DNA of 64,000 bases from Plasmodiophora brassicae (Eukaryota). The stretch's first letter is position 1. Each line of letters starts with the position of its first letter. Below, one piece after another: positions 50,690 through 63,012 of this stretch. The position numbers were made by a program, and so were the translations under genes. The notes beneath the pieces are model-generated. The model did not search any database and was not told where the DNA came from. It saw nothing but the letters and a program-made list of their open reading frames with translations. The stretch lies in assembly GCA_036867785.1 (NCBI GenBank), contig CP145425.1:248001-312000 (forward strand). Reading direction: 5' to 3'.

Positions 50690-53500
50690 CGCCCACGCCC
50701 ATCATCCGGATGCGGCACGTTTTGGAGACACACGGGGGGTGTCGTCTTTTCTCAACGCGACAGGTACGGTTACTGGAGCAGTTGGAGAATCATTTGCCCA
50801 GTTCTTCCTGGATAAGCTGGAATATAATTTTATCATTTGGCCGACCTCTACGGCCGGGGACATTCGTTGCGACTAATACACCTCGCCAGCGCCGATGTAA
50901 TAACCTCTCTGAAGCTGCTGTTAGAGATGGCTGGTCTGAACCTGCATGTCGAACGCAACGCAGGCGCCGCGCCACCACCCTGCAGAGCCTTGGAGCCGGC
51001 ACATGTAAGAGGAACGGTCGTCGTGTGTTTCGTTTCTGGGCACGGATATCACTGTACTGACTCCGCTGTAACCGGTACGTCCAGCTCAAGACAACGACGA
51101 TGGGCCGTGAGCAGTGCCAGTCCTCATCACGCGAAATTACGGTTAGCAGCATTGGCCGCCGTTTGCAGACCCCGACATCGAGGGCGAAGCGCACCAAGTG
51201 TTCTGGTGCAAAGGCGCGTTCTGATCGGTGTTCTTGTCATACTCAGAGTCATCGATGCAGTACGCATGTGTTTATGCCAGCATCTTATGTTAGTCCTCAT
51301 CAGCAAGCGGACTTCACTCTGCATCATCGCTTACTGCGGTCACGACAAACTGACTGCATGCCGCTGAGCTAGCTCAGTTTGTCCGACACACTTAGCTACA
51401 TAGTATACATCTTAGAGGGAGCAGGCGCTCGAACTCCCGTCGGTGAGATGTTTTGTAGACCGGACCCGCTGCTCTCGTGGCCTCGGTGGGCGGTCCGGTC
51501 TACAAGGTTGAGATGCGAACTGACAAAGTCGTCGACCTCTGGACACCCGTATGTTTCCTCTCGCGCCCTTCCAACTCTTCCCGGTCATGCATGTTAGATG
51601 CCAACCTCCGTATTTATCACGGAACATTCCAGGTTCCCTGGAATGGTCCTGATGTCATGCAAACGGTATTACTTAGTTCGGCTACCGGATCGGGGAATAA
51701 ACAGAGTTCATTTCCGCCGAACTCACGTGAGTTCGTTCGCTCCCAAGAATTTTTGGGTGCCTTCAGCCAGACGCGCCCTTAGTGAAATCAGCAAACCTGA
51801 CCAAGTTGCGCTACATTCTTCGCAATGTGAGAAGATCGGTGGCAGCTACGCCAATGAAAACTGTCGAGCTGCCTCTGATTTTTAATGCTCTTTCCAAAGG
51901 CACCCTTCTTCATAACTCCAGGTGGCTCGATCTCGTAAACAACACCTCGTAGCTAGCTCACGTGGAGACAGGCGAACGACACTTCCTTGTCTCGCGACGT
52001 GATAACGATCAGAACTCCAACTTCGATCGTATCGACTTCTCCATGATGCAGGGGCACTTGGTTAACGAAAATGCAGGCTGTAGAATCGTAACGTTACTAC
52101 CTCAGGTAACTGCTCCTCGTAATGGCTCGTATAACTAAAACGACACACATACAGTCGTCTTCGCGGGACGTTCTGACAATCGTCCACATCCCGTCCATTT
52201 GCTCCTTGTGTATATATGCGACGGGCCCGTGCCGACCGTTGGCGGCGAGGCGCAGAACGTGCCCTGCATTACCATTGGTCAGTACGTATATAACGATTAG
52301 AGCACGTGTACACAACCGTCGTCAGGCGAACGCGTGACAACACCGTCGACGGCATCGTGGGTAGACGCCCATTCGATGGTGAGGGAAGACGTCGGGGCGT
52401 CAGCGCAGTCCAGGTAGGCCAGGTTGCCGTCGCGACGCAGGACGAAGCCGCCCACATGCAAACACTGCATGCTGGCGGACGCGCGCCGGCTCACCGATTG
52501 TACTGTATGACGCAAGGTGCGCGGGCGGCGGCGACGTCACGCTGCTGCCAATGCACATGGCTCCTGGCTCCGACGTGGCTACAGTCTGGAACAAAAGAAT
52601 GGGCCCTGGGCACAAAAATCGGGCCCTGCTTCCTGCACTCGCCTGACTGTGCTGCCCTCACGTGCCGGCCACAACCTGCCAACGCAGTACGCATTCGGCA
52701 GTCCGCTCGTGGGCCCCGTCTCCGAATCCACTGCAGGCTGGCCCCAAAACGGACACTGCGTCCTGCGGCGTCGAACTGCGCTGTCTTGTACAGCACAATG
52801 TGCCACGGCTGGCGGCAGGTTGTGGTCCGCGTCGTCGAGGCGCGCCCTACCAGATCGTATCAATCTATATGCGACAACCTCCTGGTTTCGCTACCCAGCG
52901 ACAGGAGCACAAAGTATGCGAACTACTAAAGTCCCTCTGCGGTTTAAAGCAGGCAAGCCGCTTATGGCACCTCACGTTCCATGAATTTCTTGTGGAATGT
53001 GGCGTGTCTCAGTTGCACACCGACCATTGCCTTTATGTTCTCAAACTAGACAACGGCAAGCTATTCTTTGTACTAGTCTACGTTGACGACTTGATCGTCG
53101 CAAACAACACGACTCTTGCAACGTTTCACAGTAAAACACGTCGGTCCATTGACCTGTTTCCTGAACGTGGAGGTTATCAAAGACCGCCCCAATCGAAAGA
53201 TATGGCTCAGGCAACGTCAGTACATAACTGACATGGTGAACGAATTCCGCATGTTCGATCGCAACCCTCATTGCCTATGTGCAATCACTGAGGAGGAACG
53301 AGGAACCATGAATCACTTCCCTTACCGGAAGCCACCGGAAGCCTAATCTATCACGCAACCAGAACACGACCAGATATCGCCTATGCAGTTCAGCAGGTCG
53401 CCCGGTTCTGCGATAACCCAGGCACCGCACACCGGGACGCCTTACTCGGTGTTCAAAACTTACCGCGCTCGCATTTGAACAGCGGTTACATTTGTACTCA
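50690..53500 (+). mobile_element. Ty1/Copia retrotransposon remnant (RT core about 52840-53470; upstream extent tentative)
   Basis: KVCELLKSLCGLKQASRLW..DHCLY..VLVYVDDLIV and TRPDIAYAVQQVARF. Faint integrase-like VETGE..RRDN near 51960. Confidence 0.8.
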
Positions 53501-53768: not shown

Positions 53769-55043
53769 TCAGCTGGAAATCAGTTTGGCAACGAAATGCG
53801 CAATAGCAACATGGCCACGCTCCGCCATGTCCGGGAAGAAGGGCGGCATCATCGGCGTGATGTGCGGAGCTTTCGGTTCGACGAATACGTCGAGAGAAAG
53901 CGCCGGGCGCGCCTTCTTCGCCGCCTCGATGAATCGTTCGATATCGGAAGCGAACGATTCCCTGCCGCCGTAGTGGATAAACATGGGGCAGAACCCGGAC
54001 AGGTCAGCGAACACTGGGGACAGCAACGGGTCCTTGACGTCGGCACCATCAGGAAGGAACCACTGCGTCATACGTTTCAACGTGTGGATACTTGTGAAAT
54101 CGTAGGCGTGATTCGCTTCGTGTGATGTGGGCGGGATCACGATGTCCACCCAAGGCGAGATCAGGATCGCGGCCGAAACGCGATTCTTCAACTCTTTCGC
54201 CTTGTCTACAGCATGGATGAGATAGAGTTTTAGCCATGGCAGCTTATCGGAAGGACTTTTCTTTAGAGTTTGCAGGACAGCAAGGACGAGGTTTCCTCCT
54301 GCAGAATCGCCCATCAAAATAATCGGCCGATTTGGATACTCCTTGGCGACGTAATCAATGGCAGCAATAGCTTCGTTGAGCTGTGTCGGGTACTTGCAAC
54401 AGGAACGATTAGTAACAACTATCTAGGAGATCACATCACGAGAGACATACCTTCGATTCCGGAGCCAGAGAGTACTCCAACGAGAAGATCCGCATGTTTA
54501 TGTTGTGGATCTTCTTCAGCGCCTTCCTTATCCCTGACAGACCAGTGACGTATGTCAGTGCCGAACAGGTCGAGTAGCCACCCCCTATGCGTCTGAGTCA
54601 TGATAACGAAGAATGTGAAACGGCGGCTAAGCAAACCGTGAAAATAGACGATGACAGGTTCGTTCGATCCGTCATGACCGCTCTCGTATTCATCGCCAAT
54701 CCAAACGCCCCGAATGCCATCATCCTCAACGGGCGTTAGCTTATCCGGAACCGACATGGACACGAGCTTGGACGTGGCAGCTTCGAACGCGCGCGCACCC
54801 TCCAGGCTATTCTCGATGGAATATCGAATGAAACGAACCCCGATCTCTGTGCGAATGCTCGATTCTGGCACGATTGGCTGCCGCAATTGCCATGAGTCTC
54901 ACGGCGTCACCATCGCTCACCAGCCCACTGACCTCATAGCCAAGCAGGCGCCGAACTGGCGTGACTGTCCACAGGTAGACCAGGAATGCCAAGCAATGCA
55001 GAAGTGATCGCCGGGGAGCTGGCACGTCGGGCACCTCCACCAT
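53769..55043 (-). CDS. Alpha/beta hydrolase, HSL-family esterase/lipase
   Basis: VIVYFHG|GGY, MGDSAGGNL, ILISPWVD, DPLLSP. Confidence 0.9.
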
Positions 55044-55401: not shown

Positions 55402-56411
55402 TCACCGGTCGTAATCGTGGTCGTGATCTGAGACGCAAAGTCAAGATTGAACAGGGCTGATGATATAAGTCACACGAATATCCTACCATCGTCCTGGTCG
55501 TGGTGATGATGATGGTCATCGTCTGTGATCGCACAGTTAGGAATCAGCATGACAAGAACGTTCACGACAATCGTACTGTGGTGATGATCATGGTCGTCGT
55601 CGCCGTGGTGGTGGTGATCTGGACGATGGCTCAGATGCGATGAGTACAGTAGCAAGGTTGGCCTATACCTTCGTGCCCGTGGTCGTGGTCCTTGTCGTGA
55701 CCTCTGTGATGGCCACGTTCGTCATGGTGACCCGAGTCGTGATCACCATGAGAGCTGGCCCACGTGTGATCACTGGCATCTGACGCAAGGAAGCAGTTAG
55801 GGCAATCACTCGTCAACTCAGGCGTGAGGGCGCAGCAGTTACCCTGATCCGCTTCAGTGGTTACTGAAGAATGGAAATCCCAGCCAGTGCTCATCGGCGT
55901 TGCATGCATATCGAAATGTGCATCTTGCTCCACGTCGTTGTGAGCATGCTGATCGGTATCCTTGCCGTTTTCCACCATGTGGTCGACGTCATCGTGGTGA
56001 TCTCGATCGTCGTGATGCTCGTCGTCTGGCGGACTAAATCAGCTCCTGGTGGAGGCATTCGTGACGACATTGTGTTACCGTGATGGTCATGGTCGTCGTG
56101 ATGGTGGTCGTGCCCGTCATCCTAACCGCAAAGATGAACATCAGAATGCGGAATCGCGAACATACTGGCGCAAGCATCAGTACGTGGTCATGGTGTTGCC
56201 CATGATCATGGCCATCGTCGTGTCCATCATCTACCAATGCGCATGTTAGACCGCGTCGGAATAGTTCCACAACTGTATGCCGACCGTGCCCATGATCATC
56301 ATGGTCATCGTGGTCGTGGCCTTCGGAATGCCCCGATACCGTTGCGAATAGCAGGAGGGCTACCAGCCCAACCGCAACCGCTACCCGACGATGACCGGCG
56401 GTGATGAACAT
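55402..56411 (-). CDS. Secreted His/Asp-rich protein, 8 short exons
   Basis: Signal-like MFITAGHRRVAVAVGLVALLLFATVSG. Seven GT-AG introns join in frame the His/Asp exons (HDHDDHDDHGH, DDGHDHHHDDHDHH, DHHHHGDDDHDHHH, DDHHHHHDQDD), ending DHDHDYDR*. Confidence 0.85.
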
Positions 56412-56743
56412 CTCGAACGAGATTTTCGAATGTGCCTGACCCATCGCCGCCCACGCTGACTCACGAAGGCGCCCCCACTTCAGCGCAGGTTGCATTGAAT
56501 CAACTGCCCGTGACTCAACCGAATCTTCAGCAGGCACGCCATCAACCTGCCGCTGCCCGGAATTTGACACCATGGCGCTGGCAATGATCGGGATCGGGAG
56601 ACTTACTGTCCTGGATGATCTAATACTTCAAAGGTAGGCTGTCCGCTGTCGTGACGTGATCGTTTTGTCGTCACTGTGCCTGCGGTGGACATGCTTTTTT
56701 TGTGCCAGTTGGACTCGGCCAGACTGGCCAGACGACAACCCGA

Positions 56744-59700
56744 ATGGGGCTGTGGCGGTCATCTCGGGTGACCCGCGTTCAGCTGGCCGTCGATGAGGCG
56801 TCGGCGTCGACGACGTTGGCGGCGCTGGACGGCCTGGTCCACCTGATCGATTTGAACCGGGGTGAGGTTGTCGTGCCGGAGTTTGCGATGGGTTGGAAGC
56901 GCAGGGCGATGGCCTGCGGTGGGCTGATGGCCCGGCTGGACGCGATCGGGAAGCTCATGGTAGATTACGATGTTGTACTTCCGGACCTACTTCATCATGA
57001 TGATGCTATGGCGACGATCGAGACCTGCGACTCGATCCAGACGAAGTTGCTCGCTGTTGAAACCGATCTGAAACATCATACCGACGTGCTCGTTCACCTT
57101 GAGAGCGATATTGAGCGATTGCTCGAACGGGTCTCCGTCCTGGCCTTGTGCCAGGCCATTGACCAGAACGAACGCACTGCCGACCTGGTTGACATCCGTC
57201 AGCATAGCGGCGAATCAGGCGGAACGCTCAGGTAACGCCTTGGCTCAGTTGAACATACGCTGTGCTGACGAGCACGTCTGCACAGTCGTGTTTGCGGCTG
57301 CATTACGCAAGCCGATCGTGCGCATCTGGAACGGATGATCTTCCGAGCGTCTCGAGGCAACGCGCATGCTCTGTTTGACCTGGACCGCCCCGTTCAGACT
57401 GAAAATTTGTTGGAAAACATGGTTGGGGCCTCTATCTGTCGGCGCTACCTCGCGTGATAATACTACTGCTATAGAATGGACGGTCGAAGCGGCAGCCACA
57501 AAGCAGACGCGTCGCATTCTGCGTATTTGTCGTTGGTCGACTTATGGAGCTGAAGGTCCGTCACTTGGTCTCCCTGGTGGGCGCTCTCCACGAGTATGTC
57601 TATCGTATTCTGGGACGATGTGTTGCCCGTTTATCAACCATGTAATCTCAGAGTCCCGAATCCAGAGTCGTGGTCCAGTGAAATTCAGGAAGTTATCGAC
57701 GAAATCCGCGATGCAGTGGAAGTCGTCCGTGCAACCCGGAACCATATCACGACACTGCTCGAAACTGTTGCCGACAGTTCGTTCCAGTCATGGCGCGCGT
57801 CCCTTCGCCGTGAACTGGCTATTAGTCAAGCAATGCAAAGATGTCGTACTTTGAACCACAGCAATTCCAAAACCATACGAATCGAGGGTTGGGTGTTTGA
57901 CATCGACCTCGTTCGGTCGTCGTTAAGCCGAACGGCCCACGATTTGGGTAGGCCCAATATGTTTCTATGCGCTCCGCCCGGTTCCCATGGTTTCAATATG
58001 TTTAGGCATTCCACCTGCGGCACTCCACGTTTTGAACCATTCTGGTGACGATATCATTCCTCCAACGCACTTCCACCTGAACGAGTTCACCTCCATCTTC
58101 CAGAAAATGATTAACACGTACGGTGTCCCTCGTTACCAAGAGGTGACTTCTTGTTGGTCCACATGTTCTCACTCCTCAGTACTCACTGGAACGTTCAGGT
58201 GAACCCTGCTGTATTCACTATAGTCACATTCCCTTTTATGTTTGGTGCAACGAAGTTGAATGTGTCCCATATAACGTTGATCCTAATTATGTCCGATCGT
58301 GTAGGTCAAATGTTCGGCGACGTTGGTCACGGATCTATTATCTTCCTATGTGGCCTCTACCTGGTTTTCCGAGGCCGATCTCTGCCACCCCAGTAGGTTT
58401 CATGATACTCTAGATAGCAGGCACGGCCGCTGAATTTCATGAACGTTCAGGTATGCTGATTTGTACAAGGCTCGATATTTGATTGCAATGATGGGTTTCT
58501 TTGCAATCTATTTCGGTCAGATGCCGTTGGCTATTAGAACATGTTCCCATCATTGACAGCGCTTTAGGCTTAATTTACAATGACATGCTTGGGTTCGGCG
58601 TGCCGCTGTTCGAGTCCGGTTGGTCGTCGGGGCCTGATGGATTGAAACATGGTTCGGTTTATCCGTTTGGGATTGACCCGGCATGGCATGGTTCCGACAA
58701 CGAGCTGCAACTGATGAACTCGATCAAGATGAAAATATCGATAGTGACCGGAATCATCCACATGACCGTTGGTATCTGTCTCTCCGCTGTCAATCATAAG
58801 ACAGTAAGTTTGGAACGCGCAATTGCAACAAATGTGTTGAACCATGTTTCGACAGTTCCAAGACCGGGACGCGCTACTGTGCGAGTTCATTCCACAGATG
58901 CTGTTCCTCTGGGCAACGTTCGGCTACATGGCATTTCTTATCATATTCAAGGTTTGGCGTTTGGCTATGTCCTCCCGCACTTGACTAATGGTGTCAGTAG
59001 GCCTGTTATTCTTGGGATGGCCTCGTTGCCCCATCGATCATTCAGACAACGATCAACCTGTTTGTTGGATCTCCGTACGATCCCATGTTTCGGTATCAAA
59101 GTGTGCTGCACGTGTTTCTACGACTAGTCGCATTTATTTCTGTTCCGGTCATGCTCTTTGGGAAGCCGTACCTGAGGTGGGCCGAGTGTTTCTCGTTTTC
59201 CTCCAGCGCGCCACTGACCGCCCCCTATTCAAAGGTGGCGCAGGCTTAAAACAGCCACTGTTGCCTACCGTCAAGTCGATATGGGCGACCTCGATATTGA
59301 AGTTGAGCTCCAGCCGCTGGCATCGAGCCAGGTGTCGCCTCCAGTAGCATCAAGTTATAGCACAACAGTTGAATCTGCTGATGCTGTCAGCCCGAAACCA
59401 ACGCGTCGGGACCGTGCGGATGAGGTTCGGGTCCCGGTTCCTTACTTCACTGTGCCCTATAATAATATTCGCGCTAGGCCATCGCTGAATCCCTTCTGCA
59501 TCAAGCCATCCACACAATCGAATTCGTGCTAGGCGCTGTTTCCAACACGGCCTCATATCTCAGATTGTGGGCTCTATCGCTCGCTCACGCTCGTACGTCC
59601 GGGGCATAATCCTAGAAACTGGATATGGCTAAAACGTTTCGCAGAGCTCTCTTTGGTCTTTCTGGAGCACATCCTAATTCCCTCGTGGAGCAGCTCTAGC

Positions 59701-59895
59701 GTGATCGTTAACGCCACCGGGTTCTGTATCTGGCTGGGCTCAACGCTTGGTATCCTTTGTGGAATGGACTGCCTGGAATGCTTATTGCATGCTCTACGCC
59801 TACACTGGGTTGAGTTCCAGAGCAAGTTCTTCAAGGCAGACGGTGTTGAATTCGAAGCCTTCTCACTCTCTGCCGACTGGACACGTACGGAATAG
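56744..59895 (+). CDS. V-type H+-ATPase V0 subunit a
   Basis: [99 protein letters not shown]. Confidence 0.95.
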
Positions 59896-59991
59896 CGAGG
59901 AATTTATTAATTTATCGCAATAACTATTCTATTGGCTCTGGAATCACATGGCGGTCAGTCGTTCGGACTGTTTGTCAGTGTCCGATTCGTG

Positions 59992-60640
59992 ATGCTGCGA
60001 CTAGTGTCTCGTTGCCGTTCTCGGTTTGCTACGTTTGCGACTAAGGTGCCGACGCCACCAACCCAGGAAAAGGCTGGACAGAAAATCGTTCTTCCCGCAG
60101 TGCCCGTTGAAGAACATGTGCCTGATCAGGCACCTGCATCGACCGAACGTTTCCGTCGCAACTCGTTTGACATCATGTCGGGAGCCCAGATAGCGGAAGT
60201 TGAAAGGAGCGTGCCGGGGCGGCCCCGTGTCAGTCTTAAGGGCGGGTTCAAACGAATTGCAGTCGCGTCGCTCAGCTCCGTCGAGGTTACTATAGTGCAA
60301 TTGCAGACGCTTGCATCTGACAGTCCCTCAGTTTTACCCAATGATGCTGTTGTTAACCTCTATTACCACGGGAATGGTTGTGTTCATGATCCAGAACTTG
60401 CTTTGGAACCCGGACGTCAAGATCAGCGCGAAGAGGTCAGTGGGCTTGGGTACTGGATTATGGCTATATTTGCTAAGTCGTATTGCTAACAGGCGATCGG
60501 ACTTCATGCCTCAGGAAGGTGATGAAGAATTTGGACGCTGGTACATGAACAGGCCCCACAGAGTGTATCTAGCCGCTAAAGCCAAGGAGTACATGAGGCG
60601 CAGGGGCCACATTGTTCCTGGGGAACCACGTCAAGTGTAG
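59992..60640 (+). CDS. NDUFA4/B12D (COXFA4)-like protein A, with a long N-terminal extension
   Basis: Introns 60286-60331 and 60436-60492. Core SSVE|FYPMMLLLTSITTGMVVFMIQNLLWNPDVKISAKRR..EEFGRWYMNRPHR fits the E..P(TM)L..NPDV.I...R..G..Y...R family pattern. Confidence 0.75.
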
Positions 60641-60789
60641 GCGAGGCTGTTCCGTTGAGTTTCGCAAGGTTGGCCTCGCAACATGCAGTCGACGGCATGG
60701 TCCAACGAAGCGCGTGTGTTATTTTGATAAAATTAAAAGAGTATCGGTCAGCGCCGGCCACGTGTTCCATCGATCGCGCCGATGATTTT

Positions 60790-61049
60790 TCAATACTGAG
60801 GTTTGCGATCCCAAATGGGCGCCTTCTGCTGTTGCATCTTGTCGTAGAAAACGCGTGTCTCCTGCGTCCACCTCCACTGCGCTGTGTAATAACTGCCCGA
60901 GACATCACCAACTTAGCCAGCATCCAGGATATATGTTCGTCGCGTCCTCACATGCTGGACAGCGCCATGCCTATGCCTAGGCCAATGCCCATGTTCCACA
61001 GCAGACTGCCTCGGATCCTTTCACGTGCCCAAGCAGCCAGCAACGCCAT
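60790..61049 (-). CDS. Cytochrome c oxidase subunit COX6C/Cox9/plant COX5C-like, paralog A (66 aa)
   Basis: Intron 60893-60951. Spliced: MALLAAWARERIRGSLLWNMGIGLGIGMALSSIYYTAQWRWTQETRVFYDKMQQQKAPIWDRKPQY. Confidence 0.72.
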
Positions 61050-61267
61050 TGTTGGAATACTGCCTCCGATCCGAATCCGAACCGACTTCGGAATTTCGCA
61101 GAGGCCAGCCCGGCTGGCTGGAGGCACGCGTAGAGCAGTTTCACTTGTGAAACGCGTGCAAAAAACTTGGAAATGCGGGGACCACCTCCCAGTCCCACGT
61201 TTTAGCGTCACAGAAGTTCAGGGTTGAGCGTGGCAGCGGTTCGGCCGTGTCGGCGGGAGTGATCAAG

Positions 61268-61511
61268 ATGAGCCTGAAGCACAGCGTGATATTCCAGGGC
61301 TTTGTCGGTATGTGCATCGGGACGGGGTTCGGCCTGTGGTAGGAAGCGGCCGCGCTGCTTGTGTCGCCCCTGCCCGGCGCTGAACCGATGGCGCAGGTGG
61401 AAGATGCGTCAGTGGGAAGCCATTAAGACGTCCCGCACGTACTACCAGAACCTGCAGAAGAAGCTGGTCGAGAATGGCGACCTGCCTGCCGATTTCTTCC
61501 ACAAACACTGA
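61268..61511 (+). CDS. Cytochrome c oxidase subunit COX6C/Cox9/plant COX5C-like, paralog B (61 aa)
   Basis: Intron 61339-61396. Spliced: MSLKHSVIFQGFVGMCIGTGFGLWWKMRQWEAIKTSRTYYQNLQKKLVENGDLPADFFHKH. Resembles plant COX5C SV.....G...G...G..WKM..W....R.FY..L. Confidence 0.8.
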
Positions 61512-61868
61512 CTTGACCTGTGAAATACATTTGTCCGTCACATCTGCCCCCCGATATCGTATTGTATAGTGGCCCTATCAGACGATCCCTCCGATCTGAC
61601 TGGCATGGGGCATCGGGACGCGTATGTTGCTGCTCCCATCGGTGCTGGACCGGGATTACTCCCTCTGTCGGTTTGTTCGTGGGTGTGGTGACGCATTTTG
61701 CAGGCACTGTGTGGGCCCGAGAGCGAGCCGCTGTGACTGCCCGTCGTCGTTTGGACGCGGCTCGGAAAAACACAGCAAAGGCCATCGGCGGTGTCGACAA
61801 ATCGTGTGTCGGTAGAGAGCTCCCGAAAGAGGCAGCTGCGGTGAGCAGTTGGTGACGGTTGCGGCGCC

Positions 61869-62285
61869 ATGGTCAACATGTTCACCAAATGGATGAGCCA
61901 TCCCGAGGTGCCTGGCCGGGTGTCGACGCGTGTGGCGGCGTGCTGATGGGTGCGTACAGACCTGGCCGATCTTCGGCCTGGCCGGCGGTGCGCTCTGCCT
62001 GGGCACCTTTATGCTGTTCCGAACGGCAACGTTTGCTCCCGATGTCCAGTGCGTTTCGAATACGCCATTGCCGTCGATGTTGCCAGTGACTTTGCGCCAT
62101 ACAGCATCAACCGCGAGGCTCGGGACCAAATTGTTCGGAACAATGTCGAGGAAGGTCAACAGTACTTCGACCATCCGCTTCGCCAGCGGCTGAAGCACGC
62201 CAGCAAGAGCCTGTTCGGCGACTTGAACGAGCGCATGAGCCGACCGGACGCGGAAGCGCCCAAGAAGAAGCACGCCGACCACTAA
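61869..62285 (+). CDS. NDUFA4/B12D (COXFA4)-like protein B
   Basis: Spliced: MVNMFTKWMSHPE|TWPIFGLAGGALCLGTFMLFRTATFAPDVH|INREAR..EEGQQYFDHPLR, a typical B12D pattern. Confidence 0.85.
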
Positions 62286-62427
62286 GACGACTTCTACCTC
62301 CCAGGTGGGCGCGACCAGCAGGTCGCGCCCTCGGCAGTAAATCGGTCACGATTCTCGACGCCGCTAGCTGACAATCGTAGCCATAGGTGCCTGAATGGCA
62401 TATGCAATCTCTTTCCAATGTTGCTAG

Positions 62428-62721
62428 TTACGGCTGCGTCGTCGGCGTCTGCTGGCTTGACAAGCGACCATCAGCCCTGCCCGGTATCAGATAGTCTAGG
62501 ACGGGGTCGGGCGCCCCGACCCACTCCAGAAACCGGAAGGACCACGGCTCTGGGATGATGGCCAACGACGCCGGGTACGGCGGGTGCTTGCGGACGAAGA
62601 TCCAGATTGCAAACGGCGAACACACGCCTGTCGCCACGGTCGCGATCCCTATCTTGGTCCGCACGTGCTGCGGCATCGAATGGGGATACATCCAGTACTG
62701 CAACAGCCTAGCGCGCCACAT
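62428..62721 (-). CDS. Small single-TM hypothetical protein
   Basis: 97-aa intronless ORF with TM KIGIATVATGVCSPFAIWIFVRK. Confidence 0.5.
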   Translation of the reverse strand: MWRARLLQYWMYPHSMPQHVRTKIGIATVATGVCSPFAIWIFVRKHPPYPASLAIIPEPWSFRFLEWVGAPDPVLDYLIPGRADGRLSSQQTPTTQP

Positions 62722-63012
62722 CGCGCCTCGCTCGACCGCTGTGAATACCTGGCGGAACGCGTCGGTCCGCCGGATTCCGATACCCAGTTCCTGTCGCCGA
62801 AAGAGGGCGCTCGGCTGGTGGTACCATTTCGGGGCACTACTTACGCCGAGACAGTGCTGTCAACTGCAGAGCTGCAATTACAGCTCCGTAGTTGACGAAC
62901 CGGACAGGCACGTTGTTCACTGGTCTGGACTGGTCTGGACCGGATGAGCTCTCAAGTAGTCCGCAAAACGGGGCGGTGGCGGTGGCGGCGGTTGCACCTA
63001 TTTCGATGCCCA

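What the first reader, a model, noticed from the sequence alone, without database searches (positions are those of the whole stretch)
59992..62285. Hidden cluster of duplicated complex IV accessory subunits: NDUFA4-A > < COX6C-A, COX6C-B > NDUFA4-B >
Seen: four tiny intron-split genes lie within 2.3 kb, none recovered intact by the ORF track. They form two paralog pairs: two B12D/NDUFA4-like and two COX6C/Cox9-like. Established: both families are cytochrome c oxidase subunits, and NDUFA4/B12D isoforms are linked to hypoxia or tissue-specific switching in animals and plants. Inference: two unrelated complex IV subunit families are linked and both retained as strongly diverged duplicates. This may be an A set and a B set that build two alternative complex IV forms (for example zoospore versus low-oxygen intracellular stage). 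I do not know of a described cluster like this.
Basis: partly seen in the sequence, partly recalled or inferred. Interest (0 to 1): 0.82.

Follow-up and report, generated by a model that had tools for sequence, protein, structure and literature searches.

The report
Linked duplicated cytochrome oxidase subunit genes
In the clubroot parasite Plasmodiophora brassicae, four tiny spliced genes side by side encode two diverged copies each of two small cytochrome c oxidase accessory subunits, which is a neat but not radical arrangement whose proposed role in switching between two forms of the enzyme is still untested.

Summary
At 59992-62285 lie four small intron-split genes: G1 (+, 181 codons) and G4 (+, 102) of the B12D/NDUFA4 family, and G2 (-, 66) and G3 (+, 61) of the COX5C/COX6C/Cox9 family.

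- **Splicing:** all six predicted introns appear as GT..AG joints in transcript-like contigs of public runs.
- **Public records:** three spliced models equal public Plasmodiophora brassicae proteins letter for letter. G1 matches a shorter public model.
- **Not really hidden:** G4 is already named an MLRQ/NDUFA4 subunit. G1 carries a precomputed B12D domain. G2 and G3 are only "uncharacterized".
- **Family evidence:** B12D scores 56.5 bits for G4 and 24.8 bits for G1, against a cut-off of 21.5. The G2+G3 profile finds plant COX5C across 1.84 billion proteins and by hhalign at 96.8%.
- **Divergence:** each pair is about 20% identical and shares an intron position and phase. The G3/G4 pair is closer to outgroups than G1/G2.

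I read this as an old local duplication of a linked COX5C-NDUFA4 pair. G3/G4 are probably the main subunits and G1/G2 divergent minor paralogues. The "two alternative complex IV forms" idea is untested. Only contigs were available, and no relatives' loci could be reached. Interest is moderate.

The parts
59948..59992 (+). 14-codon upstream ORF in the G1 leader. Its TGA overlaps the G1 start codon.
   Evidence: Transcript contigs begin at 59938 (X6) and 59951 (X8).
59992..60640 (+). G1 ('NDUFA4-A'), a B12D-family gene. Exons are 59992-60285, 60332-60435 and 60493-60640. It has 181 codons from ATG 59992, or 120 from the internal ATG 60175 used by public model P0012.
   Evidence: Introns joined. 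Pfam B12D scores 24.8 bits on P0012 (cut-off 21.5) and 20.1 bits on the window exon 2-3 read-through. In the ESM Atlas, 22 of 30 hits are B12D clusters.
60790..61049 (-). G2 ('COX6C-A'), a COX5C/Cox9/COX6C-type gene of 66 codons. Exons are 61049-60952 and 60892-60790.
   Evidence: Identical to P0003 (PBTT_09845). The intron joint is seen in 4 of 4 runs. The top PDB hit is plant COX5C 7jro_h at E 0.018. The nearest ESM Atlas clusters are Cox9 and COX5C-2 at 0.93.
61050..61267 (.). Divergent intergenic region between the G2 and G3 start codons. It is a probable shared bidirectional promoter.
   Evidence: G2 contigs end at 61130 and 61149. G3 contigs begin at 61235 and 61239. The promoter function is inferred.
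61268..61511 (+). G3 ('COX6C-B'), a COX5C/Cox9/COX6C-type gene of 61 codons. Exons are 61268-61338 and 61397-61511. A poly(A) site lies near 61542.
   Evidence: Identical to P0001 (PBRA_001967 / PBTT_09846). The joint is seen in 4 of 4 runs. The PDB top hit is COX5C 7jro_h at E 5.4e-4, and Cox9 scores E 0.34.
61869..62285 (+). G4 ('NDUFA4-B'), a B12D/NDUFA4-type gene of 102 codons. Exons are 61869-61907, 61960-62048 and 62105-62285. A poly(A) site lies near 62358.
   Evidence: Identical to P0013, which NCBI names 'NADH-ubiquinone reductase complex 1 MLRQ subunit'. Pfam B12D scores 56.5 bits, E 1.8e-15, over profile positions 1-54 of 54. Both joints are seen in 4 of 4 runs. Its only two PDB hits are human NDUFA4 chains in complex IV.

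Best explanation
The locus is a real, transcribed four-gene cluster of Plasmodiophora brassicae. It encodes four single-pass inner-membrane proteins. Two are of the COX5C (plant) / Cox9 (fungal) / COX6C (animal) type and two are of the B12D / NDUFA4 (COXFA4) type.

It most likely arose by an old local duplication of an already adjacent COX5C-NDUFA4 gene pair, followed by an inversion of one flanking gene. The result is a near-mirror order: NDUFA4 - COX5C | COX5C - NDUFA4.

G3 and G4 kept the conserved sequences and are probably the main complex IV subunits. G1 and G2 diverged strongly. G1 also gained a 37-98 residue N-terminal extension whose start looks like a mitochondrial presequence. G1 and G2 are probably minor or conditional paralogues.

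Shown here: the gene models, the splicing, the family assignments, the asymmetric divergence and the shared intron positions. Inferred: membership of all four products in complex IV, the duplication history, and any division of labour between the pairs.
For: Gene models and splicing:
- All six introns are seen as GT..AG joints.
- Three models equal public proteins letter for letter.

B12D family:
- G4 scores 56.5 bits and G1 24.8 bits against a gathering score of 21.5.
- A profile of the two hits 5 PDB chains. Four are mammalian NDUFA4 in complex IV (E 0.0026-0.037). The fifth is a 'cytochrome c oxidase subunit 31' at E 0.37.

COX5C family:
- The G2+G3 profile, searched over 1.84 billion proteins, gave 9 hits at E <= 0.001. 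Two are the parasite's own proteins, one is a repeat-protein false positive and six are plant proteins. Four of these carry COX 5C/Vc names from their sources. The other two (P0009, P0010) are filed only as 'hypothetical'.
- hhalign against those plant proteins gives probability 96.8% and E 2.2e-10.
- A PDB profile search gives COX5C 7jro_h at E 2.5e-7, Cox5c 9f5x at 0.006 and Cox9 at 0.027-0.035.
- The nearest ESM Atlas clusters for G2 are Cox9 and COX5C-2 at 0.93.

Paralogy:
- G2 and G3 align without gaps in the core. Both are split in phase 2 at the same alignment column, column 33 of A1.
- G1 and G4 both have a phase-0 intron between B12D profile positions 5 and 6.
- The two pairs are about equally diverged, at 19.5% and 20.5% identity.

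Asymmetry:
- G3 scores higher than G2 against plant COX5C (23.2 versus 18.4 bits).
- G4 scores higher than G1 against B12D.
- Third-position GC is 0.76-0.87 in G3/G4 and 0.55-0.76 in G1/G2.

Literature:
- COX5C, COX6C and Cox9 are treated as orthologues, and NDUFA4 co-migrates with complex IV in another SAR parasite (PMC8217502, passages).
Against: - No direct evidence places any of the four products in complex IV.
- Pfam COX6C (PF02937) does not hit G2 or G3. The six plant relatives do not pass it either. Five of the six give no hit and the sixth scores 17.4 bits against a cut-off of 22.
- The G2+G3 profile also hits the membrane anchor of a cytochrome c1 chain at E 6.5e-4. Part of the signal is therefore a generic 'helix plus basic stretch' pattern.
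- G1 versus G4 is barely detectable pairwise, at E 0.38. Their second introns lie 5 codons apart.
- The mirror order needs an extra inversion, because G1 is on the + strand.
- No relatives' loci were available, so the age and order of the duplications are not shown.
- Translation from ATG 59992 is not shown. The public model starts at 60175. A uORF and an alternative 51-nt intron that removes ATG 59992 also exist.
Confidence: 0.7

Rival explanations
1. G1+G2 (set A) and G3+G4 (set B) are two co-regulated sets. They build two alternative complex IV forms used in different life stages or oxygen regimes, for example free zoospore or spore versus intracellular plasmodium. The model is the exchange of NDUFA4 for NDUFA4L2 or C15orf48, or of COX4-1 for COX4-2, in animals.
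For: - In both families the diverged copy and the conserved copy sit on the same side of the cluster.
- G1 splicing differs between runs. It is fully spliced in X1 and X4, mixed in X6, and unspliced with a minus-strand-type joint in X8.
- Exchange of B12D paralogues under hypoxia or inflammation is established in mammals (PMC5448071 passages; PMC8654286 abstract; PMC7793259 abstract and passages).
- A weak lead only: in the two runs where the genes lie on separate contigs, contig depths were 10.8-22.7 for G1/G2 and 218.6-1535 for G3/G4. The tool states that such depths cannot rank genes.
Against: - No stage-resolved expression could be read. Only contigs were laid and the sample labels are coded.
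- G2 (set A) and G3 (set B) are divergent neighbours whose transcript contigs end about 85 bp apart. That suggests a shared promoter region rather than opposite regulation.
- G2 is spliced in 4 of 4 runs, the same runs that hold G3 and G4.
- Nothing shows that a COX5C-type and an NDUFA4-type subunit need matched partners. One paper describes NDUFA4 as peripheral and in contact with the lipid cardiolipin (PMC8654286 passage).
Confidence: 0.2
2. G1 and/or G2 have left complex IV. They are diverged single-pass mitochondrial proteins with another role, such as an assembly factor, a subunit of another complex, or a lineage-specific extra subunit sitting at a new site beside the canonical copy.
For: - G1 barely passes the B12D cut-off (24.8 versus 21.5 bits) and has no PDB hit on its own.
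- G1 carries a long N-terminal extension.
- The G2+G3 profile cross-hits a cytochrome c1 anchor.
- A 186-residue 'cytochrome c oxidase subunit 31' is a weak hit of the B12D pair profile at E 0.37. Long B12D-like extra subunits may therefore exist in some complex IV structures.
Against: - Both keep open frames, correct splicing, the family motifs and the family's intron position despite about 80% sequence change.
- The nearest ESM Atlas clusters for G2 are all Cox9/COX5C, and those for G1 are B12D.
Confidence: 0.1

Closest known systems
Plant cytochrome c oxidase subunit 5C (COX5c), fungal Cox9 and animal COX6C
   Same: - They are about 60-residue proteins with one membrane helix followed by a conserved W...R.(F/Y)Y stretch.
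- G2 and G3 align to Vigna COX5C residues 15-55 in the same register.
- Arabidopsis also has several COX5c genes: COX5c-1, -2 and -3 (table in PMC5877523).
   Different: - The two P. brassicae copies are only about 20% identical to each other.
- They are head-to-head neighbours.
- Each sits next to a B12D gene.
- Neither passes Pfam PF02937.
NDUFA4 (COXFA4) and its paralogues NDUFA4L2 and C15orf48 (Pfam B12D, PF06522)
   Same: - G4 covers the whole B12D profile. Its only PDB hits are NDUFA4 chains of human complex IV.
- Paralogue pairs of this family exist and are exchanged under hypoxia or inflammation in mammals.
   Different: - No evidence of exchange was found here.
- G1 has a 37-98 residue N-terminal extension.
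- The two copies are far more diverged (E 0.38 pairwise).
- Both are linked to COX5C-type genes.
Condition-specific isoform pairs of complex IV subunits. Examples are mammalian COX4-1/4-2, COX6A, COX6B, COX7A and COX8 isoforms, and yeast Cox5a/5b (the yeast pair is recalled, not looked up).
   Same: Duplicated nuclear accessory subunits of one enzyme.
   Different: - The mammalian review's abstract lists six subunits with isoforms, and VIc is not among them (PMC5448071).
- In the papers I searched, no co-located duplication of two different subunit families is described.

Membership tests
B12D / NDUFA4 (Pfam PF06522) | Match to the family profile at or above Pfam's gathering score (21.5 bits) | tested here: met
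   G4 (P0013) scores 56.5 bits, E 1.8e-15, over profile positions 1-54 of 54. G1, via public model P0012, scores 24.8 bits, E 1.4e-5, over profile positions 4-45. P0012 differs from the window at 3 residues. At exon level in the window, G4 exon 2 scores 29.2 bits. The G1 exon 2-3 read-through scores 20.1 bits, just under the cut-off.
B12D / NDUFA4 (Pfam PF06522) | One membrane helix between a short N-terminal part and a 'PDV' turn | tested here: met
   The best 19-residue hydrophobic windows are G1 100-118 and G4 15-33. PDV is invariant in the pair alignment. The alignment to human NDUFA4 covers this stretch.
B12D / NDUFA4 (Pfam PF06522) | Physical subunit of cytochrome c oxidase | not testable with these tools
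   This needs complexome profiling or a structure of the P. brassicae enzyme.
COX5C / Cox9 / COX6C | Significant sequence or profile similarity to known members | tested here: met
   Six of the 9 library-wide hits are plant proteins. Four are named COX 5C/Vc by their sources and two are filed only as 'hypothetical'. hhalign gives 96.8% probability, E 2.2e-10. The PDB profile search gives COX5C at E 2.5e-7, Cox5c at 0.006 and Cox9 at 0.027-0.035. Singly, G3 reaches E 5.4e-4 and G2 E 0.018. The nearest ESM Atlas clusters for G2 are Cox9 and COX5C-2.
COX5C / Cox9 / COX6C | Match to Pfam COX6C (PF02937) | tested here: inconclusive
   G2 and G3 give no hit. The plant relatives do not pass it either. 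Five of 6 give no hit and one tandem form scores 17.4 bits against a cut-off of 22. The model does not cover this branch.
COX5C / Cox9 / COX6C | About 55-70 residues with a single membrane helix in the first half | tested here: met
   The proteins are 66 and 61 residues long. The best hydrophobic windows are 15-33 and 6-24.
Switchable complex IV isoform pairs | Reciprocal or condition-dependent expression of the two paralogues | tested here: inconclusive
   Only assembled contigs could be laid. G1 splicing differs between runs and contig depths differ, but the tool warns that contigs cannot rank genes. Sample labels are coded.
Switchable complex IV isoform pairs | Both paralogues occupy the same site of the enzyme | not tested
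   No structure or complex prediction was run.

The most novel reading that the evidence does not exclude
P. brassicae keeps a compact 'isoform cassette'. A diverged COX5C/NDUFA4 pair (G1+G2) and a canonical pair (G3+G4) are used together to build two forms of cytochrome c oxidase for different life stages or oxygen levels. Regulation would include a uORF, alternative 5' splicing and antisense read-through at G1. This would be a co-evolving, physically linked two-subunit switch. None was found described in the papers I searched.
Probability: 0.15. Interest if true: 0.65.

Novelty: new member of a known kind. Interest (0 to 1): 0.4.

Why it matters
- **Annotation:** the work gives a function-level name (COX5C/Cox9/COX6C type) to two P. 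brassicae proteins that public records call 'uncharacterized'.
- **Genome organisation:** two different complex IV accessory families were duplicated together and stayed linked within 2.3 kb. Eukaryotic respiratory subunit genes are usually scattered, so a linked, co-duplicated pair is a convenient natural test of whether accessory subunits evolve and are regulated as matched sets.
- **Biology of the parasite:** P. brassicae alternates between soil stages and growth inside root galls. A minor set of oxidase subunits could mark a respiratory adjustment between these stages. Existing stage-resolved RNA-seq could check this directly.
- **If no switch exists:** the locus is an ordinary case of old tandem paralogues.

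Tried and rejected
- **Exon-level searches for G2 and G3:** Pfam and PDB found nothing because the pieces are too short. Full-length public proteins were used instead.
- **Own genome:** no genome is held for this window. Further copies elsewhere in the genome could therefore not be searched. In the protein libraries, only these four loci's products appeared.
- **RNA runs:** no RNA holder is listed as such on record. The runs are marked 'RNA?' as a guess. Their RNA nature rests on the spliced joints and poly(A) ends seen.
- **Contig depth:** the tool states that depth cannot rank genes, so the depth differences are quoted only as a lead.
- **Synteny in relatives:** a metagenome scan with G4 gave 107 pattern matches, none confirmed. 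A scan with the neighbouring V-ATPase exon gave 46 loci at 38-81% identity. tblastn of the four proteins and one plant COX5C against all 46 gave only 3 chance-level hits (E 0.2-0.73). Synteny remains untested.
- **Earlier findings of this scan:** nothing was found by place, sequence or words.
- **Literature:** no paper holds the locus tags. The searches listed no paper on nuclear complex IV subunits of P. brassicae. The nuclear/mitochondrial genome paper mentions only mitochondrial cox1-3 (PMC6823432 passages). Supplementary expression tables were closed and may hold stage-specific values for PBRA_001967 and PBRA_001968.
- **Cytochrome c1 fragments:** I considered whether G2 and G3 are pieces of cytochrome c1, because of the hit at E 6.5e-4. 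I rejected this. COX5C scores far better, the proteins are complete at 61-66 residues, and the Atlas neighbours are Cox9/COX5C.
- **Not run:** complex and structure prediction. The report does not claim that these proteins bind each other.
Full report
**What is there**

The region 59992-62285 was read directly and gene models were built by hand. A script then checked them.
- G1, + strand: exons 59992-60285, 60332-60435 and 60493-60640, giving 181 codons.
- G2, - strand: exons 61049-60952 and 60892-60790, giving 66 codons.
- G3, + strand: exons 61268-61338 and 61397-61511, giving 61 codons.
- G4, + strand: exons 61869-61907, 61960-62048 and 62105-62285, giving 102 codons.

All spliced frames are open. 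The six introns measure 46, 57, 59, 58, 52 and 56 nt, and all begin with GT and end with AG.

**Transcription and splicing**

A search for public runs listed 20 holders from 12 studies with 0.50-0.77 of the sampled words. None is on record as RNA. I laid the contigs of four runs from four studies: X1, X4, X6 and X8.
- Every predicted intron appears as a joint at exactly the predicted borders.
- The G2 intron, the G3 intron and both G4 introns appear in 4 of 4 runs.
- G1 intron 1 appears in 2 of 4 runs (X1, X4).
- G1 intron 2 appears in 3 of 4 runs (X1, X4 and, weakly, X6).
- Poly(A) loose ends at 61542 and 62358 in X6 mark the 3' ends of G3 and G4. Together with the splice joints they show that these contigs derive from RNA.
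- In X6, unspliced G1 contigs also exist.
- In X8, the contig over G1 keeps both G1 introns but carries a CT..AC joint at 60317-60366. That is an intron of the opposite strand. The contig overlaps the G2 contig at 60699-60714, so it may be read-through from G2 running antisense to G1.

**Identity of the organism and public records**

- An exon-based search returned P0001, 61 residues. Its sources name it 'Uncharacterized protein PBTT_09846' and 'hypothetical protein PBRA_001967' of Plasmodiophora brassicae.
- P0003 is 66 residues, PBTT_09845, held by NCBI only.
- A profile of G1 and G4 pieces returned P0013, 102 residues, named 'NADH-ubiquinone reductase complex 1 MLRQ subunit'. It also returned P0012, 120 residues, PBRA_001968, with a precomputed PF06522 domain.
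- My G2, G3 and G4 products are identical to P0003, P0001 and P0013.
- G1 residues 62-181 equal P0012 except at 3 positions.
- The genes are therefore not unknown. What is new is the family assignment of G2 and G3 and the view of the four as one cluster.

**Family tests: B12D/NDUFA4**

- P0013 matches Pfam B12D over the whole profile at 56.5 bits, E 1.8e-15.
- P0012 matches at 24.8 bits, E 1.4e-5. The gathering score is 21.5.
- P0013's only two PDB hits are human NDUFA4 chains in complex IV, at a weak E 0.43. P0012 alone has no PDB hit.
- A profile of both hits 5 chains. Four are mammalian NDUFA4 (E 0.0026-0.037). One is a 186-residue 'cytochrome c oxidase subunit 31' at E 0.37.
- In the ESM Atlas, 22 of 30 feature hits for P0012 are B12D clusters at 0.91.

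**Family tests: COX5C/Cox9/COX6C**

- Pfam finds nothing for P0001 or P0003.
- The best PDB hit of each is the plant complex IV subunit COX5C, chain 7jro_h, in the same register (residues 15-55). E is 5.4e-4 for P0001 and 0.018 for P0003. Fungal Cox9 follows at E 0.34 for P0001.
- A profile of the two (A1) was run against 1.84 billion representatives and gave 9 hits at E <= 0.001. Two are the parasite's own proteins. One is a 975-residue repeat protein matched only in the low-information C-terminal part. Six are plant proteins. Four carry 'cytochrome c oxidase subunit 5C' or 'Vc family' names from their sources. P0009 and P0010 are filed only as 'hypothetical'.
- These plant proteins fail Pfam COX6C as well. 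Five of 6 give no hit and one scores 17.4 bits against a cut-off of 22. The Pfam negative is therefore uninformative.
- hhalign of A1 against five of the plant proteins gives 96.8% probability, E 2.2e-10.
- The A1 profile against the PDB gives COX5C at E 2.5e-7, an algal-type 'Cox5c' chain 9f5x_2F at 0.006 and Cox9 at 0.027-0.035.
- The same search also hits the C-terminal membrane anchor of a cytochrome c1 chain at 6.5e-4. This is a caveat on how specific such short profiles are.
- The nearest ESM Atlas clusters of P0003 are 'cytochrome c oxidase subunit 9' and 'subunit 5C-2' at 0.93.
- A complexome paper on Plasmodium states that Arabidopsis COX5C is orthologous to metazoan COX6C and fungal COX9. 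It also finds NDUFA4 in that parasite's complex IV (PMC8217502, passages).

**Relationship within the pairs**

- G2 versus G3: 20.5% identity over 44 residues, E 1.8e-5. G1 versus G4: 19.5% over 77 residues, E 0.38.
- G2 and G3 are each split in phase 2 in the codon that falls in column 33 of alignment A1.
- G1 and G4 each have a phase-0 intron between B12D profile positions 5 and 6. Their second introns are both phase 2 but lie 5 codons apart.
- In both families, the copy on the G3/G4 side is closer to outside relatives. COX5C bits are 23.2 versus 18.4. B12D bits are 56.5 versus 24.8.
- Third-position GC is higher on the G3/G4 side, 0.76-0.87 against 0.55-0.76.
- The order is NDUFA4 > < COX5C | COX5C > NDUFA4 >. 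This is mirror-like in position, but G1 has the wrong orientation for a simple inverted duplication.

**G1 peculiarities**

- From ATG 59992 the protein has 98 residues before the B12D part. Its first 25 residues hold 5 K/R and no D/E, which resembles a presequence.
- The public model starts at the in-frame ATG 60175.
- A 14-codon uORF starts at 59948, and its stop overlaps ATG 59992.
- In X4, a 51-nt GT..AG intron (59954-60004) removes that ATG. It fuses the uORF start to a 64-codon ORF in another frame.
- Which start is used is open.

**Expression**

- All four genes are represented in transcript contigs.
- In the two runs where the genes lie on separate contigs, mean word depths were as follows:

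| Run | G1 | G2 | G3 | G4 |
|---|---|---|---|---|
| X6 | 14.5-22.7 | 19.5 | 396.4 | 1535 |
| X8 | 10.8 | 15.7 | 218.6 | 266.5 |

- The tool states that such figures cannot rank genes, so I treat this only as a lead that G3/G4 are the major copies.
- G2 and G3 are divergent. Their contigs end at 61130/61149 and begin at 61235/61239, which leaves about 85 bp between them. That points to a shared promoter region rather than opposite control.

**Interpretation**

The best-supported reading is an old local duplication of a linked COX5C-NDUFA4 pair. It left one conserved pair (G3/G4, probable main subunits) and one diverged pair (G1/G2). The side-by-side asymmetry and the run-dependent splicing of G1 fit it, but it is not tested here.

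Paralogue exchange in this family is well known in mammals for NDUFA4, NDUFA4L2 and C15orf48 (PMC5448071 passages; PMC8654286 abstract and one passage; PMC7793259 abstract and passages). Plants have three COX5c genes (PMC5877523 table). Duplicated accessory subunits as such are therefore a known kind.

**What could not be done**

- No genome is held for this window.
- Two metagenome scans gave no relative's locus.
- No paper in the library holds the locus tags or discusses nuclear complex IV subunits of this parasite.
- Supplementary tables were closed.

**Verdict**

The family assignments are confirmed. The 'hidden' label is overstated, and the functional hypothesis remains open. I rate interest at 0.4 and novelty as a new member of a known kind.

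Noticed in passing
window 59948-60004: A 14-codon uORF has its TGA overlapping the G1 start codon. In run X4 only, an alternative 51-nt GT..AG intron (59954-60004) removes the G1 ATG. It fuses the uORF start to a 64-codon ORF in another frame that ends at 60193.
   Followed up: partly
window 60317-60366: In run X8, a low-depth contig (59951-60714) keeps both G1 introns but has a CT..AC joint, which is an intron of the minus strand. It overlaps the G2 contig at 60699-60714. This may be read-through of G2 running antisense to G1.
   Followed up: partly
window 58492-59895: A V-type ATPase subunit a gene (PF01496, two ORF pieces at 98 and 87 bits) ends at TAG 59893-59895. That is only 97 nt before the G1 start codon. 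The contigs of X1 and X4 run on from it into G1.
   Followed up: partly
PDB chain 8q1b_D versus alignment A1: The profile of the two COX5C-like proteins matches the C-terminal membrane anchor of a cytochrome c1 chain at E 6.5e-4. This is either convergence of short 'helix plus W/K/R...FY' tails or a limit on the specificity of such profiles.
   Followed up: no
window 52647-53231 (+), 53769-54422 (-), 55631-56627 (-): There is a copia-type reverse transcriptase fragment (RVT_2, 68 bits), an alpha/beta hydrolase (Abhydrolase_3, 83 bits), and His/Asp-rich ORFs, of which 56034-56627 was scanned and has no Pfam match.
   Followed up: no
window 62428-62859 (-): A 143-codon open frame lies directly downstream of G4 on the other strand. 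It has no Pfam match at E <= 0.01, and its transcript status was not examined.
   Followed up: no
G1 versus public model P0012: Three residue differences separate the window's G1 from the other strain's protein (positions 2, 3 and 108 of P0012). G2, G3 and G4 are identical to public proteins. This may reflect looser constraint on G1 or a different 5' exon in the public model.
   Followed up: no
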